From an uncultured bacterium (lineage in GTDB: Bacteria > Patescibacteriota > Minisyncoccia > Phycocordibacterales > UBA2100), in assembly GCA_903824595.1 (NCBI GenBank), contig CAIJXH010000007.1, forward strand, positions 5,184 to 69,183: a stretch of DNA of 64,000 nt. Direction: 5' to 3'. The notes below the pieces were generated by a model that was given only the letters and a program-made list of their open reading frames with translations, searched no databases and was not told the origin of the DNA. A program made the translations under genes and the position numbers. The number at the start of each line of letters is the position of its first letter. The first letter of the stretch is position 1. Positions 4,704 through 30,772 of this stretch are shown here, in pieces.

Positions 4704-4774
4704 GCGGGTATAGTTTAGTGGCAGAACGAGTGCTTCCCAAGCATTAGATCGGGGTTCGATTCCCCGTACCCGCA
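4704..4774 (+). tRNA. tRNA-Gly (CCC)
   Basis: GCGGGTA/TACCCGC acceptor stem, anticodon loop TTCCCAA, T arm GGTTCGATTCC. Confidence 0.96.
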
Positions 4775-4793
4775 CAGACGAACAACGTGAGTA

Positions 4794-4951
4794 GTGTGGG
4801 TAAGCGCAATGCTTGTGCATTGCGCGTCGGGGAATCGAACAGCGGAGCGATGCGAGGCGAGTACGCCGAGCCGCGAGCTGGTGTCCAGACCGAAACGAGC
4901 GACGGCGAGTTTCGAGTCGCGGACGATTCCCCGTACCCGCACAGACGAACA
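4794..4951 (+). repeat. tRNA-anchored structured unit A (inverted copy of tRNA-Gly 3' end + core + direct copy)
   Basis: CGGGGAATCGAAC (4828-4840) is the reverse complement of the T arm; 28-bp exact direct repeat at 4757-4784 and 4924-4951. Confidence 0.85.
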
Positions 4952-4967
4952 CGGCGCGTGTGGTACC

Positions 4968-9146: not shown

Positions 9147-11999
9147 ATGAAGCAGTACGATCACACAAAGATAGAGAAGAAATGGCAAAAAGAGTGGACG
9201 AAAAAAAAGCTGTATAAAACCGCCGACACGGTGAAAGGTAAAAAGAATTTCCACCTGCTCCTCGAGTTCCCCTATCCGTCCGGCAATTTGCACATCGGGC
9301 ACTGGTACGCCTTTGCGGTGCCCGACATTCTGGCGCGCACACTGCGAATGCAGGGAAAGAATGTGCTGTTCCCGTTTGGCTTCGACGCCTTTGGTTTGCC
9401 CGCCGAAAATGCCGCGATCAAGCGCGGACTCAATCCGCGCATTTGGACGTATCAAAACATGGCACACATGAAAAAGCAGATCGAAAGCTGTGGCGCGTCG
9501 CTCGATTGGTCGCGCGAGGTAGTTACCTGTGATCCATCCTACTATCGTTGGACGCAATGGATGTTTACGCAATTTTTCAAAAAAGGACTTGCGTACCAGA
9601 AAGAGACACCTGCCAACTGGTGCCCTTCGTGCAAGACCGTGCTCGCCAACGAGCAGCTCGTGGCAGGGAAGTGCGAGAGATGCGGCACCGAGGTGGAACA
9701 GCGCCAGATGCTTCAGTGGAATCTTGGTATTACGAAATATGCCGACCGCCTTACCGACGACCTCGCTGCCATCGACTGGCCCGAGCAGATCAAAGAAGCG
9801 CAACGCAATTGGATCGGGCGAAGCGAAGGAGCGGAGATTGATTTCAAGCTAACAATGGGCGAGAACATAACCGTCTTCACCACCCGTCCCGACACGCTTT
9901 TTGGTGCGACGTATCTCGTGCTTGCACCAGAACACCCTCTCGTAGCTCAATTCTACACAAGTCAGACTTGTGTAAATAGAGATGAAGTAGAAATGTATGT
10001 CAGACAAGCGAAGAAGAAGACCGATCTGGAACGACAGACGGAGCAAAAAGACAAAACGGGCGTCGAGCTCAAGGGTGTGAAGGCCATCAATCCTGCGACG
10101 GGAAAAGAAATCCCTGTGTGGATTGCCGATTATGTGCTTGGTCACTACGGCACCGGTGCCATTATGGCGGTGCCCGCACATGACGAGCGTGATTTTGCAT
10201 TTGCAAAAAAGTTCGGGTTGCCGATCGTGAATGTAATCGAGCCTCTTTCTGTTGATCTTGAAGGAGTGAGTCGCGCTCGACTCGACATGCCGTTTGTGGA
10301 GCGTCAGACCATTATCGCGTTTGTAAAACATTGGTCAGAAGACTCGTATCTTATTTTGGACTGGAAGCAGGTGGGGTGGCATTCGGGTGTTACGGGGGGA
10401 GTTGAAGATGGTCAAACACCGGAAGAGGCGGCGCGTGCGGAAATACACGAAGAAACAGGGTATCGCAACCTCAAGCTCCTACGAGTGTGCGGAAAAGGGC
10501 ATGAGAAATTTTTCCATGTTCCCAAAAATGTCAATCGATTGACCCACTATCAATGCTTTTTGTTTCAGCTTGAAAACGATGAGCGTGATGTGATTTCCGA
10601 CGATGAAGCACAAAAACATTCAATGCGATGGGTTCCTGCGCATCTTATCGAACATACTCTTACTGCCGCTGCGCAACGTTTTGAGTGGCGCATGCTTCAA
10701 TGTGAAGGTGCATACTGCGGTGATGGCGTACTACATAACTCCGGAGTATTCTCCGGACTCAATACAGAAGAAGCTGGAAAAAAAATGACAATGGCGTTTG
10801 GTCGCCCGAAGAAAACCTACCGCCTGCGCGACTGGGGTGTGTCGCGGCAGCGGTATTGGGGTGTGCCGATTCCGATTATCCATTGCGAAAAGTGCGGTGC
10901 GGTGCCGGTGCCCGACAAGGACTTGCCGGTGAAATTGCCGGAGGTGAAAGATTATTTGCCCACCGGTGATGGCAAATCGCCACTCGCAAAGGTGGAGAAA
11001 TGGGTCAGCGTGAAGTGTCCGCAGTGCAAAGGAAAAGCCAAACGTGAGACAGACACACTCGACACGTTCGTGGATTCTTCGTGGTACTTCTTGCGCTACG
11101 CCGATCCGAAGAACAAAACGAAATTCGCCGATCCAAAAAAGCTTAGTGCATGGATGCCGGTCGATCTCTACTCGGGTGGCGCGGAACACACTACCATGCA
11201 CCTCCTGTATTCGCGCTTCTGGCAAAAGGCGCTCTATGATTTGAAATTGGTCAAAGACAGCGAGCCATACACGCGCCGTATGAACCGCTCCCTCATCCTC
11301 GGACCCGACGGGCAGAAGATGAGCAAATCAAAAGGCAACGTGATCGATCCCGACGATGTGGTGAAGCGTCTCGGAGTCGACACAGTGCGCATGTATCTCG
11401 CCTTCGTGGGTCCGTACAACGAAGTGGCGAGCTATCCGTGGAATCCAGACGGCGTGGTGGGCGTGCGGCGATTTTTGGAGCGCGTGTGGCGTGCCGGGGA
11501 ATTGGTGGGGAAGAAGGAGGTCGCGACACTTGATGGCATCTTGCACAAGACGATCAAGAAAGTGGGCGACGACAACGCCGCGCTCAAATTCAACACCGCC
11601 ATCAGCGCACTCATGATTCTCCTGAATGCGATCGAAAAAGAGAAGGCGATAGGCACGAAACAGTGGGCGATCGTGCTGCGGCTGCTCGCGCCGTTTGCGC
11701 CGCACGTGGCGGAAGAATTGTGGCGCGCGGCAGGCAACAAAAAATCCATCCATCTCGAAACGTGGCCGAAATTTGATCCACAGAAACTCATCGACGAATC
11801 CGTGGTGATCGGCATACAGATCAACGGCAAAACGCGCGGCGAGGTTGCCATTGCCGCTGGCACCAGCAAGGAGGAAACAGAGAAAGCGGCGCGCGCGGCT
11901 ATCGCCGCGCGCCTTGAAGGCAAGCACATTCTCCGCACCATCGTCGTCCACAATCGTCTCGTGAATTTTGTTGTGAAGGAGGAATCGTCCCGCGACTAA
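9147..11999 (+). CDS. leuS: Leucine--tRNA ligase with inserted NUDIX domain
   Basis: FPYPSGNLHIGH, FTTRPDTLFG, GTGAIMAVPAHDERD, KMSKS; NUDIX box GGVEDGQTPEEAARAEIHEETGY. Confidence 0.97.
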   Translation: MKQYDHTKIEKKWQKEWTKKKLYKTADTVKGKKNFHLLLEFPYPSGNLHIGHWYAFAVPDILARTLRMQGKNVLFPFGFDAFGLPAENAAIKRGLNPRIWTYQNMAHMKKQIESCGASLDWSREVVTCDPSYYRWTQWMFTQFFKKGLAYQKETPANWCPSCKTVLANEQLVAGKCERCGTEVEQRQMLQWNLGITKYADRLTDDLAAIDWPEQIKEAQRNWIGRSEGAEIDFKLTMGENITVFTTRPDTLFGATYLVLAPEHPLVAQFYTSQTCVNRDEVEMYVRQAKKKTDLERQTEQKDKTGVELKGVKAINPATGKEIPVWIADYVLGHYGTGAIMAVPAHDERDFAFAKKFGLPIVNVIEPLSVDLEGVSRARLDMPFVERQTIIAFVKHWSEDSYLILDWKQVGWHSGVTGGVEDGQTPEEAARAEIHEETGYRNLKLLRVCGKGHEKFFHVPKNVNRLTHYQCFLFQLENDERDVISDDEAQKHSMRWVPAHLIEHTLTAAAQRFEWRMLQCEGAYCGDGVLHNSGVFSGLNTEEAGKKMTMAFGRPKKTYRLRDWGVSRQRYWGVPIPIIHCEKCGAVPVPDKDLPVKLPEVKDYLPTGDGKSPLAKVEKWVSVKCPQCKGKAKRETDTLDTFVDSSWYFLRYADPKNKTKFADPKKLSAWMPVDLYSGGAEHTTMHLLYSRFWQKALYDLKLVKDSEPYTRRMNRSLILGPDGQKMSKSKGNVIDPDDVVKRLGVDTVRMYLAFVGPYNEVASYPWNPDGVVGVRRFLERVWRAGELVGKKEVATLDGILHKTIKKVGDDNAALKFNTAISALMILLNAIEKEKAIGTKQWAIVLRLLAPFAPHVAEELWRAAGNKKSIHLETWPKFDPQKLIDESVVIGIQINGKTRGEVAIAAGTSKEETEKAARAAIAARLEGKHILRTIVVHNRLVNFVVKEESSRD

Positions 12000-12253
12000 A
12001 ACTTTTTCGTCAAAAAGTTTTGCCTGGGCACCGCCTCGCAGTTTTGCCTACTGACAAAACAGGACTCCGTCGATTCGATTGAAAATGGAATCGAGTCAAG
12101 CGCTCGAAATCGTGCCGCCGCACGATGTCTCCGCCTGACCACGCTCGCGCGACCCGCCGTACTCGACGAGTCCCCGCGCTCGCCGTTCGATTCCCCGTAG
12201 GGACCCGACAACGCCTAAAAGCCCGACACAATGTGTCGGGCTCCAAGGCGTTG
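11981..12253 (-). repeat. Two tandem tRNA-anchored structured units (B1 12087-12202, B2 11981-12080) downstream of tRNA-Glu
   Basis: 18-bp perfect inverted copy of the tRNA 3' end (12185-12202 vs 12257-12274); B2 ends AGTCGCGGGACGATTCC like unit A. Confidence 0.8.
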
Positions 12254-12325
12254 TGACCCTACGGGGAATCGAACCCCGATTTAAGCCTTGAGAAGGCTCC
12301 GTCCTAACCGTTAGACGATAGGGCC
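12254..12325 (-). tRNA. tRNA-Glu (CTC)
   Basis: Minus strand GGCCCTA...TTCTCAA...GGTTCGATTCCCCGTAGGGTCA. Confidence 0.95.
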
Positions 12326-22936: not shown

Positions 22937-23008
22937 TCCGGGGTAACTCAATGGTAGAGTGGCTCCCTGTTAAGGAGTAAGTTGTGGGTTCGAGTCCCAC
23001 CCCCGGAG
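22937..23008 (+). tRNA. tRNA-Asn (GTT), island integration site
   Basis: TCCGGGG/CCCCGGA acceptor stem, loop CTGTTAA, GGTTCGAGTCC. Confidence 0.95.
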
Positions 23009-24566
23009 CCGAAGGTCGGATAATATACCACCCTGAAAAAACCCATTGTTTTGGGCTTTTTCAGTTTTTGGTGTTTTGTAGAAGGCTTCCTCTGCTTGCA
23101 AAAGTTCTGCAAACAAGGGGGAGGGAACGGAGGTTACTATAACCCCATCGGCAACCTCGAAGTGTTCCCAGAAAAACGCAAGGTATTGCCGCTTGAGATC
23201 AAATGATGCTTTCGTGTATGCGTGATAGATGTCGCGTGCCAGCAGCAGTACCTCCTGCGCGACATCTACATTCATGTCTCGCTGATCTTCCAGTCCAAGT
23301 AGGTCGTCGTCAATGTCTGTCATTTGAGTCGTGATCTCTTTTCGTATTCGAGTGAAATCTGCGTCTTGAATGACACCATCGAAGAGTTTATCCTCTGCGG
23401 TCTTTCGTTTGCCTTCAAGGGCGGTTCTCTTGTTCACGAGTGCTTGTCGCCGACCATCGTACCTCTTCCGCCTATCAAGAAAGATGTGTTTCGTCTTGTT
23501 TATGACGATATTGATGAACTCGTCCGAGAATTGCAGGTCTTTGAACTTTTCGGCAATCTTGCTTTCAAGATCGACTTGCTCGCAATACCGCCCGCACCCC
23601 ATCCTGTTGGAGCAATGGTAGTAAGCGATACCTTTTCTAATGCCACTCTGCGACATAGCGTTTTCCATGATTGGCACAGCGCACGAAACCAGAGAGGAGC
23701 CATTTATGCTTTCGCCTGCGGCACGCCTTGTGATTGTTGTGTTCAAGTATCGTCTGTACCTGATTGAATGTCGCCTCGTCGATGAGCGGCTCATGCTTGC
23801 CGTTCTTGTTGTGTACCTTTCCCCACTTCACTTCACCGAGGTAGATGCGATTACGCAACAAATCATAGATGCGGCTCGGTGATAAGGGGTTCCCTTTGTG
23901 GCTTCGCAGTCCGCGACGACTCATCGCGTCGGCAAGGTCGTATACGCTGTATACACCAGTTGCATAGAGACGGAAGAGTTCGGTAATGAGTGGAGCGGCT
24001 ATCGGGTCTGGGACGATTATCTTGCGCCCAACACGACTCACGTTTGGGTCAGGATTATCGGTGTTGACATATCCTGCGGGAGGAATGGTGGGGAAGTAGC
24101 CCGCCTCGGTTTTTGCGTAGAGTGTACTTTTCACCTTGTCCGATATTTGGTCGCGGTAATACTGATTGATGTTCGCGTGCATTCGATCCGACATTTTTGA
24201 GTGAGCATTGTTTTCGGGGCTTGCCTGTTGAATGTAGATGAGTCGGATGTCGTTTTCGAAGATAAGATCCATGAATTCGATATGCGCTCGTTCGTTGCGA
24301 AACATACGATCCGACGCAAGGGTAATAACTGCCTCGATTTTCTTTGTTGTGATGAGGTTTCTGATGTGATTCAGCCCAGGTCGTTCGGCTTTATGACCGC
24401 TAATGCCGCCATCATCGAGAATCTCTAGCAGATCGTACCCGTCGCGCTCTGCACGTTCACGACAGAGCTTTTCCTGTACCTCCAAGGATAGTCCATCATC
24501 TTTTTGATCTTTTGAACTTACCCTTACGTAACCGACTGCCAATGGTTTTTCTTTTTTATGATTCAT
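22970..24566 (-). pseudogene. Large serine recombinase, frameshifted near 23640
   Basis: YVRVSS..Q...SL..Q catalytic motif and recombinase domain in one frame; zinc ribbon YYHC..C and coiled coil continue in another frame after AEWH*; ends LRGWDSNP antisense to the tRNA. Confidence 0.88.
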
Positions 24567-26934: not shown

Positions 26935-27097
26935 GGGTACGTTTCGGCGTACTCACACAACCAATATCGAGCCGCAAGGCTAGTGCCTAAACCATCGAGT
27001 CATCGGTGGCATGGTGCGAAAACGTAAGTCACAGAAAACCCGTCATTCAGGGCGTGACTTACGTTATAGGGGGAAACTCCTATATGACCGCAAGGTC
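26935..27097 (+). ncRNA. Candidate structured RNA with six hairpins
   Basis: TTCG, GCAA, GTCA, GAAA, GCAA loops and a 12-bp perfect stem, directly after TGGTATAGT. Confidence 0.55.
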
Positions 27098-27114
27098 TCC
27101 TGGTGGCGGGCTTT

Positions 27115-30600: not shown

Positions 30601-30772
30601 ATTCGCTAAAGTTGTCGAAAATATCGTTTCGTAAAACGGACTACTATCAATGTTGATCAACAGATGTTTCCATTCGTTGCATCAATCTGATCATTATCAG
30701 CCGATGTTCCATCTGCAACATGAATTCTCTGTTGAAAAATAGGGGTATATTTATGTCATGTTCCGGGAGCCG

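What the first reader, a model, noticed from the sequence alone, without database searches (positions are those of the whole stretch)
4757..4951. tRNA-anchored structured element whose ends are copied from the host tRNA (unit A, prototype of a four-copy family)
Seen, in order after tRNA-Gly: GTGTGGGTA (antisense of the acceptor 3' strand); a perfect hairpin GCGCAATGC-TTGT-GCATTGCGC; CGGGGAATCGAAC (exact antisense of the T arm including its loop); a ~85-nt core with hairpin 1 (loop AGTA), linker GCGAGCTGGTG and hairpin 2 (loop GACG); then a 28-bp exact direct copy of the tRNA 3' end and flank. The same layout occurs at tRNA-Glu (twice) and at tRNA-Asn. In each case the termini match that locus's own tRNA, the stems differ, and the loops and linkers are largely kept. 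Inference, two models: (a) a non-autonomous mobile element that targets tRNA T arms and templates its ends from them; (b) a co-transcribed RNA that forms an acceptor/T-stem mimic with an expanded T loop, or invades the pre-tRNA to control its maturation. I do not recognise it as a named family.
Basis: partly seen in the sequence, partly recalled or inferred. Interest (0 to 1): 0.82.

Follow-up and report, generated by a model that had tools for sequence, protein, structure and literature searches.

The report
Self-guided mini-element at gene tails
Behind this tRNA gene sits a short, gene-less, tightly folded DNA unit, also found behind dozens of other tRNA and housekeeping genes of ultra-small bacteria, that carries a forward and a backward copy of the gene's tail and likely inserts itself by base-pairing with that tail, using an enzyme not yet identified.

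Summary
Unit A is real and far beyond chance. It belongs to a structured, gene-less family: 214 copies in 30 of 41 related genomes, strong covariation, no Rfam match, not found in ten paper searches. This scan noted the family before on other DNA. Added here: (1) the antisense arm ends at a sharp point, 2 nt (possibly 3) upstream of where the downstream tail copy starts, at T-loop sites, acceptor-end sites and protein genes alike; (2) it also sits in the 3' ends of topA, rpsI, rpsR and one unnamed gene; (3) in topA the two tail copies differ at 109 synonymous against 20 non-synonymous codons, so they come from different coding lineages; (4) near-identical cores occur at unrelated targets. Best reading: a mobile integrative mini-element (tail copy, hairpin, antisense guide, two-hairpin core) that likely moves as a folded single strand, pairs its guide across the insertion point and swaps in its own tail. 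No enzyme was identified; serine recombinases, Y1 transposases and IS110 do not track with it. Corrections: unit C lies 7.8 kb from tRNA-Asn behind an island, and B1/B2 lack a full tail copy. A regulatory tRNA-mimic RNA is unlikely.

The parts
4704..4775 (+). tRNA-Gly(CCC), the target gene
   Evidence: ARAGORN; Rfam
4755..4756 (+). T54-T55: the two target bases upstream of the junction that are still paired by the antisense arm (predicted toehold)
   Evidence: sequence; family-wide boundary
4757..4784 (+). First tail copy (C56 to tRNA end plus 9 nt); completes the tRNA; likely the element-borne or host-corrected tail
   Evidence: 28-nt exact repeat; origin inferred from topA copies
4757..4923 (+). 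Predicted mobile unit, 167 nt; as a circle it folds into a three-way junction
   Evidence: z = -7.4 against 100 shuffles; the circle itself was not observed
4794..4802 (+). Antisense of the acceptor 3' strand (8 of 9, one G.T)
4804..4825 (+). Side hairpin between the two antisense segments; in the family its loop is most often CTGC (24 of 64)
4828..4839 (+). Antisense 'guide': reverse complement of 4755-4766
4840..4923 (+). Conserved two-hairpin core (arm P1 4841-4879, loop AGTA; arm P2 about 4881-4924, loop GACG)
   Evidence: covariance model 87.6 bits; covariation
4924..4951 (+). Second tail copy, likely the displaced resident 3' end
   Evidence: role inferred
12087..12252 (-). Unit B1 behind tRNA-Glu(CTC) (12253-12325): full antisense arm, divergent core subfamily, 7-8 nt downstream copy
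11978..12078 (-). Unit B2, stacked behind B1: typical core, short arms
   Evidence: 62.5 bits
30823..30959 (+). Unit C: hairpin, guide to the tRNA-Asn T arm, core, degenerate tRNA-Asn tail; separated from its tRNA by an island
   Evidence: 73.1 bits
23011..30772 (.). Serine-recombinase island inserted at the tRNA-Asn acceptor end, between the tRNA (22937-23010) and unit C; not part of the element proper
   Evidence: Pfam Resolvase + Recombinase on 23637-24566; short copy of the tRNA end at 30763-30772

Best explanation
Unit A is one copy of a gene-less, strongly folded mini-element that sits in the 3' ends of tRNA, tmRNA and some housekeeping genes of Patescibacteria and likely moves as a folded single-stranded DNA circle that finds its target by base-pairing. 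Shown: the order tail copy - hairpin - antisense guide - two-hairpin core - second tail copy; one orientation; a guide that overlaps the junction by 2 nt (3 if the first base of the second copy belongs to the core); presence and absence at orthologous sites; two tails of different coding ancestry in topA; near-identical cores at unrelated targets. Inferred: the mobile unit runs from the first tail copy to the end of the core; in the circle the guide pairs with the element's own tail and leaves its last 2 bases free; these would act as a toehold, so that the target's sense strand pairs along the guide across the insertion point; an enzyme acting in trans would cut and rejoin one strand there, so that the element's tail completes the gene and the resident tail ends up behind the core; replication would fix the product. 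Also inferred: the first tail and the guide are then often re-copied from the resident sequence starting at the junction, which retargets the element to a new gene. The enzyme is unknown; the geometry fits a chemistry that leaves a free 3'-OH upstream of the cut (HUH tyrosine, serine or IS110-type; chemistries recalled except IS110).
For: Covariation: 92.7% of cells paired, 21 of 26 pairs change on both sides, 326 double changes against 99 +/- 8 shuffled, slid controls at most 42% paired (five pairs are invariant because of the search pattern). Orientation: tRNA/tmRNA within 300 nt upstream on the same strand in 73 of 105 pattern hits, 0 opposite; 45 of 65 model-found hits, 1 opposite; 117 of 148 in a third set, 0 opposite. 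Boundary: offset 2 is best in 75 of 92. In model-found copies classified without the two bases, they match in 18 and 17 of 19 acceptor-end copies while the next base matches 0 of 19; in 17 and 17 of 18 T-loop copies (third base 10, fourth 0 of 18). Own target: T-stem positions match 3.98 of 5 against 2.60 permuted (max 3.04 in 5000). Mobility: 0-23 copies per genome; 6 of the 30 best-scoring topA loci and 2 of 30 rpsI loci filled. Two lineages: 15 topA loci, 255 codons, 109 synonymous and 20 non-synonymous differences, 123 of 159 changes at third positions; the guide follows the first copy at 19 of 20 discordant sites. L347/L349 share element (0.95) and first tail (0.92) but not upstream gene (0.78) or second tail (0.62). 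Junction-anchored correction: in L243 and L312 the two tails are identical for 33-34 nt from the junction and then diverge. Retargeting: cores 96.5% alike at tRNA-Lys and at a protein gene; genome-specific cores at several tRNAs of G202 and G211; L038 holds a chimeric tRNA fragment beside an intact duplicate (read by eye).
Against: No enzyme found: none among 127 of 130 flanking ORFs, and presence does not track with serine recombinases (18 of 24 against 12 of 17), Y1 transposases (25 of 32 against 5 of 9) or IS110 (4 of 5 against 26 of 36). Which tail is the resident one is not settled: across 91 non-independent topA pairs the first tail tracks the upstream gene (rho 0.34) better than the second does (rho 0.09), and L345/L243 share the element (0.93) but only the distal part of the first tail (0.75 overall). 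In rpsI copy L272 the bases upstream of the junction follow the guide, not the displaced tail, which a plain one-strand swap does not explain. The junction is uncertain by one base (12 of 32 copies of one subfamily start the second tail with A instead of C; rpsI copies L307, L311). DNA against RNA is not resolved: the sense strand folds better in 55 of 55 cores under both parameter sets. No circle was observed.
Confidence: 0.58

Rival explanations
1. Only the core (with its hairpin) is mobile, and both the antisense arm and the second tail are copied from the local target during each insertion, by polymerase template switching or by capping a 2-nt staggered break with the folded core (a miniature inverted triplication). 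The first tail is then the resident one.
For: The 2-nt boundary is what joining a single strand across an end with a 2-nt 3' overhang would leave (inference). Guides match rare T-loop variants exactly. Genome-specific cores occur at many tRNAs. The first topA tail tracks the upstream gene better than the second. Direct copies vary from 3 to over 60 nt and often carry small errors next to the junction.
Against: A tail copied on the spot and then silent should change at all codon positions; the topA tails differ 109 synonymous to 20 non-synonymous, and in 8 of 14 loci are no more alike (0.66-0.75) than tails of unrelated empty alleles (0.73 +/- 0.05). Target-specific lineages exist (nearest core has the same target in 14 of 112, with 1.8% of pairs sharing a target). 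This route may still be how new targets are first acquired.
Confidence: 0.2
2. The unit is a co-transcribed functional RNA that mimics an acceptor/T stem or invades the pre-tRNA to control its maturation or stability.
For: Always on the sense strand behind the gene. The transcript can fold with the tRNA opened (-119.8 kcal/mol) or intact (-116.1). G.A and G.T pairs fall on the sense strand (58 against 2, 18 against 6).
Against: Patchy at orthologous loci and absent from 11 of 41 relatives. Same geometry inside protein-coding tails. Guide and second tail both decay (14 guide-only and 30 tail-only changes in 40 copies) with few shared changes. The acceptor-end class cannot form the mimic. Units persist kilobases from their tRNA.
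Confidence: 0.1
3. The units are att-site remnants (CIME-like) of larger islands, in particular of the serine-recombinase islands that sit at tRNA genes in these genomes.
For: A recombinase island lies between tRNA and unit in this window and in L200 and L201. tRNA and rpsI 3' ends are classical island targets (PMC5704250, passages).
Against: Those islands carry their own short duplication at the acceptor end and split a unit from its tRNA. Of 20 regions fetched around such recombinases, only 2 showed an island closed by a unit and a tail copy within the fetched range. No association across 41 genomes. One core serves 40 tRNA genes, tmRNA and four protein genes, unlike the site specificity of an integrase.
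Confidence: 0.08

Closest known systems
Integron attC sites / gene cassettes (PMC4792948, passages read)
   Same: Recognised as a folded single strand with little sequence conservation; one strand exchanged and the junction resolved by replication; units stack in tandem, and a few enclose a gene (L204 a RibD-C/DHFR-like gene, L026, L032).
   Different: No attI platform; the target is a gene tail that changes from copy to copy; no fixed AAC crossover; a branched three-arm fold instead of one hairpin; the unit brings a replacement gene tail; most units are empty.
CTX-phage folded attP(+) and other Xer-exploiting elements (recalled, no call)
   Same: Two inverted target-like halves on one strand fold into a duplex att site; one-strand exchange; a few bases of homology next to the junction.
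   Different: Targets are about 60 different sites, not dif; the guide overlaps the junction on the upstream side, which tyrosine-recombinase chemistry would not require (inference); no phage genes; no true match in viral contigs, phages or plasmids.
IS110 bridge RNA, right target guide (PMC11208158, passages read)
   Same: A guide pairs with the top strand over a 2-nt core and the bases to its right, and the top strand is cut just 3' of the core.
   Different: Here the guide lies in cis in the element's DNA, is 9-12 nt, has no left guide and no donor loop; the 2-nt core is not duplicated and not fixed; no IS110 recombinase in this genome and in only 5 of 41 relatives.
IMEs and CIMEs at tRNA, rpsI and other gene 3' ends (PMC5704250, passages read)
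   Same: Insertion in the 3' end of tRNA and ribosomal-protein genes with a direct repeat that restores the gene; gene-less derivatives; accretion in tandem.
   Different: A conserved structured core shared across targets, an antisense guide, and rapid retargeting; no cognate integrase nearby.
MITEs, REP/BIME and other small bacterial repeats (PMC3184786, passages read)
   Same: Small, non-coding, palindromic, multicopy, non-autonomous.
   Different: The inverted ends are target sequence and differ between copies; the duplication is the gene tail, not a short fixed target-site duplication; no such element in the passages read.

Membership tests
Any Rfam family | Score at or above a family's gathering threshold | tested here: not met
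   No hit on the units at gathering; best E 1.9, far below gathering, on 4776-4960
Integron cassette / attC | Palindromic site that folds on one strand with variable sequence | tested here: met
   Covariation; strand bias
Integron cassette / attC | Fixed AAC crossover and insertion at an attI platform | tested here: not met
   Junction bases vary with the target; insertion into about 60 different sites
Integron cassette / attC | Integron integrase with the I2 insertion in the genome | not tested
   The genome has one tyrosine recombinase of 305 aa; the I2 insertion was not examined; no unit lies near it
CTX-type IMEX | dif-like XerC/XerD binding sites and insertion at dif | tested here: not met
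   Targets are tRNA, tmRNA, topA, rpsI, rpsR and another gene tail
IS110 / bridge RNA | Guide pairing with the top strand over a 2-nt core and rightward | tested here: met
   reference geometry
IS110 / bridge RNA | Cognate IS110 recombinase gene and a core dinucleotide at both ends | tested here: not met
   PF02371 absent from this genome, in 5 of 41 relatives, no association; the two bases are not repeated at the downstream junction
CIME / IME | Direct repeat that restores the 3' end of the target gene | tested here: met
CIME / IME | att sites of one site-specific integrase, derived from a larger element | tested here: not met
   Same core at 40 tRNA genes and four protein genes; no association with serine recombinases; no larger parent found
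MITE | Family-constant terminal inverted repeats and a short target-site duplication | tested here: not met
   Ends are target-specific; duplication 3 to over 60 nt
REP / RAYT (TnpA-REP) | Palindromes flanking a Y1 transposase gene | tested here: not met
   Model hits in 2 of 63 loci around Y1, GIY-YIG and Xer-like genes; two genomes with 14 and 18 copies have no PF01797 match
Retro-elements (group II intron, retron, SINE-like) | Reverse transcriptase in cis or in the genome | tested here: not met
   PF00078 not found in this 97.6% complete genome nor among 127 flanking ORFs; relatives were not searched for it
Single-stranded circular intermediate (this report's model) | Circle joining the core end to the first tail | not testable with these tools
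   Only assembled contigs were available, which drop rare forms

The most novel reading that the evidence does not exclude
A new class of self-programming mobile DNA: a roughly 130-190 nt single-stranded trefoil whose own antisense arm is the guide and splint for insertion into the 3' end of almost any conserved gene, which rewrites its tail and guide from each new target, and which can carry genes as an integron-like cassette array anchored on tRNA genes.
Probability: 0.4. Interest if true: 0.92.

Novelty: categorically new. Interest (0 to 1): 0.8.

Why it matters
If the model holds, target choice is written in about ten bases of the element's own DNA, not in a protein or a separate RNA, and it is rewritten naturally at high rate. 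That would be a DNA-guided counterpart of bridge-RNA recombination and a minimal programmable insertion system, with an enzyme still to be found in the smallest bacterial genomes. It would also explain why tRNA 3' ends in these bacteria collect stacked hairpin units and cargo, and it shows that the C-terminal codons of topA, rpsI and rpsR are exchanged between species. The topA copies give a direct test, because synonymous sites mark donor and recipient.

Tried and rejected
Rfam: no match. Papers: ten searches listed nothing that describes this element; four papers were read as passages only, the rest as listings; subscription journals and supplements were not seen. Viruses, phages, plasmids: 0 matches; two viral matches lie inside a coding sequence and lack the fold. 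Thirteen of 120 pattern matches were dropped as chance hits in coding DNA without the hairpin. Enzyme hunt: flanking ORFs, own-genome searches, co-occurrence with PF07508, PF01797, PF02371; PF01541 is in 41 of 41 genomes and so uninformative; cargo ORFs gave only a RibD-C domain. The idea that the serine-recombinase island is the autonomous parent was rejected. The 32-against-4 preference of the guide for the tRNA over the second tail was first read as selection, then set aside: it is expected from neutral decay, and guide-only changes are also common. Sequencing runs: no RNA holder listed; only contigs could be laid, and they show no joint that skips a unit, which is no evidence either way. 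An all-against-all search of the fetched loci found no near-identical filled/empty pair. Tandem G.A pairs fall in pyrimidine-GA-purine contexts in 26 of 27 cases; from recall this context occurs in both DNA and RNA, so it was not used to decide between them. The first classification had an index error and was redone.

Full report
Observation. Unit A is present as described. tRNA-Gly(CCC) lies at 4704-4775. It is followed by an antisense copy of the acceptor strand (4794-4802, one G.T), a perfect hairpin (4804-4825), an exact antisense of G53 to the 3' T-stem strand (4828-4840), a core (4840-4923) and an exact copy of 4757-4784 at 4924-4951. In 2200 shuffles of tRNA-downstream DNA the longest such match was 10 nt, against 19 direct and 13 antisense within the 22-nt tail tested. 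Contigs from a second study cover units A, B and C without differences (run X2). The other window units are less complete than stated: B1 and B2 lack a full downstream tail, and unit C is 7.8 kb from tRNA-Asn, behind an island with a serine recombinase. Nine of the genome's 44 tRNA genes carry a whole or broken unit.

Family. A pattern from the core gave 119 loci (120 matches) in a partial scan of the species collection, mostly in records titled as Patescibacteria; 13 were chance hits in coding DNA and were dropped, leaving 107. On an alignment of 55 cores, 92.7% of cells pair, 21 of 26 pairs change on both sides, and slid controls fall to 42% or less; five pairs are invariant by construction of the pattern. 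A covariance model finds 214 copies in 30 of 41 related genomes, 0 to 23 each, and 4 of 140 genomes drawn from the rest of the phylum, a lower bound since at most 32 candidates per genome were scored. A tRNA or tmRNA lies within 300 nt upstream on the same strand in 73 of 105, 45 of 65 and 117 of 148 hits; one hit had an opposite-strand tRNA. At tRNA-Gly(CCC), 3 of 13 loci are filled. There is no Rfam match, no true match in viral, phage or plasmid collections, and no description in ten paper searches. Earlier reports of this scan noted the same family on other DNA.

Geometry. Write the target as ab|Y. The product reads ab, Y, spacer and hairpin, the reverse complement of abY (the guide), the core, then Y again. 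The downstream copy starts 2 nt inside the stretch covered by the guide: offset 2 is best in 75 of 92 copies. There are two tRNA site classes: the T loop (Y starts at C56) and the acceptor end (Y starts at position 72). In copies found by the model and classified without using a and b, these two bases match the guide in 18 and 17 of 19 acceptor-end copies and the next base in 0 of 19; in T-loop copies 17 and 17 of 18, third base 10, fourth 0; 2 of 39 could not be assigned. The guide is best or tied-best for its own tRNA in 39 of 47 T-loop copies, and the second tail is strictly best for it in 32 of 45. In 12 of 34 guides the two bases opposite G57-A58 are GA, which gives a tandem G.A pair. The junction may lie one base further on: 12 of 32 copies of one subfamily begin the second tail with A for C, and two rpsI copies read better that way.

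Protein-gene targets. The same unit, with the same geometry, sits in the last codons of topA, rpsI, rpsR and an unnamed gene ending in Gly-Ser-Ser. It fills 6 of the 30 best-scoring topA loci and 2 of 30 rpsI loci of the genus. In a set of 56 topA loci, partly chosen for having a second tail, 21 are filled; in the 15 with an intact second tail the two tails differ at 109 synonymous and 20 non-synonymous codons of 255, with 123 of 159 base changes at third positions. A silent local duplicate cannot decay that way, so the tails come from different coding lineages. The guide follows the first tail at 19 of 20 discordant sites, and base a matches in 20 of 21. L347 and L349 share element (0.95) and first tail (0.92; 68 empty pairs of similar relatedness average 0.73, maximum 0.85) but not the second tail (0.62). 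In L243 and L312 the tails are identical for 33-34 nt from the junction and then diverge, and the distal part in L243 resembles that of its sister element L345: this looks like correction from the resident sequence. Against a simple reading, the first tail tracks the upstream gene (rho 0.34) better than the second does (rho 0.09) over 91 non-independent pairs, and L272 has guide-type bases upstream of the junction.

Retargeting. Among 112 cores at 59 sites (40 tRNA genes) in 69 hosts, the nearest core shares the target in 14 cases and the host in 7; 91 share neither, and cores 92-97% alike occur at unrelated targets. Genomes G202 and G211 carry their own core variants at several tRNAs, each with a matching guide. 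So target-specific lineages exist, but retargeting is fast compared with core divergence.

Mechanism. The unit from the first tail to the core end (4757-4923, 167 nt), closed into a circle, folds into a three-way junction in which the guide pairs with the tail and its last two bases stay free (z = -7.4). I infer that the target's sense strand pairs along the guide, those two bases serving as toehold and splint, that one strand is cut and rejoined at ab|Y, and that replication fixes the product, as described for attC sites (PMC4792948, passages). The guide/cut geometry equals that of the right target guide of IS110 bridge RNA (PMC11208158, passages). The circle, its single-strandedness, the direction of the swap and the correction step are inferred, not shown. 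Folding energies do not separate DNA from RNA.

Enzyme. None was found. No recombinase, transposase or reverse transcriptase is among 127 of the 130 nearest ORFs. The genome has serine recombinases, three Y1 transposases, one small GIY-YIG protein, one tyrosine recombinase, and no reverse transcriptase or IS110 match. Presence of the unit does not track with serine recombinases, Y1 transposases or IS110, and the core occurs in 2 of 63 loci around Y1, GIY-YIG or Xer-like genes. The recombinase islands insert independently at the acceptor end and push units away from their tRNA. Three loci have a gene between two units or cores, one with a RibD-C domain, which hints at cassette behaviour.

Rivals and verdict. 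Copying of both arms at each insertion explains the boundary and the retargeting but not the synonymous divergence (0.20). A regulatory RNA fits the strand bias and the two near-equal folds but not the patchiness, the protein-gene sites, the lack of compensation between arms or the displaced units (0.10). Island remnants fit the choice of targets (PMC5704250, passages) but not one core at some 60 sites (0.08). The element works like an attC or CTX-type folded site with a bridge-RNA-like guide, and fails a defining test for each of those families, for MITEs and for REP/RAYT (PMC3184786, passages). I rate it categorically new as a family, with the self-guided integration model at 0.58 and interest 0.8.

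Noticed in passing
window 26984-27098: Rfam LOOT RNA (74.9 bits) inside the serine-recombinase island at tRNA-Asn.
   Followed up: no
window 22970-24566; L200-L219: Large serine recombinase genes in these genomes mostly lie just behind a tRNA and point towards it; in several the reading frame runs into the antisense of the tRNA, and near-identical island ends occur at tRNA-Ala(GGC) and tRNA-Glu(CTC) in two genomes (L212, L213).
   Followed up: partly
L282, L285, L291 (rpsI); L122, L017, L016, L205 (tRNAs): Other, unrelated hairpin cores sit in the same frame (tail, antisense arm, core, tail copy); at rpsI one fills 3 of 30 loci and its antisense arm seems to reach about 6 nt upstream of the junction.
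   Followed up: no
L080, L127, L206, L226, L248, L461, L462: An unnamed gene ending in Gly-Ser-Ser or a close variant is a recurrent target of the element; the gene was not identified.
   Followed up: partly
L142 (own genome, contig C12) and contig C4 behind tRNA-Ser(TGA): The same insertion sequence (IS3-type by its look, not tested) sits 2-3 nt behind two tRNA genes; at tRNA-Met(CAT) it separates the tRNA from its unit.
   Followed up: no
window 12054-12252: In run X1 the contigs on either side of unit B1 do not match the window across it (record 8 has 111 unaligned letters, record 7 six differences), while run X2 matches; possibly a second allele at tRNA-Glu.
   Followed up: no
L075, L077, L205, L440, L442, L444: Small separate palindromes are inserted inside the second tail or the core of some copies.
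   Followed up: no
window 9147-11999: Leucyl-tRNA synthetase with an in-frame NUDIX domain.
   Followed up: no
L034, L101, L063, L075: True copies in records titled Elusimicrobia or Gammaproteobacteria; transfer or mis-binning was not examined.
   Followed up: no
L073: ARAGORN calls a tRNA with anticodon TTA (reads a stop codon) whose body resembles tRNA-Lys, with a unit behind it.
   Followed up: no
L241: One copy lies at the 5' side of tRNA-Glu on the opposite strand, in a promoter-like stretch.
   Followed up: no
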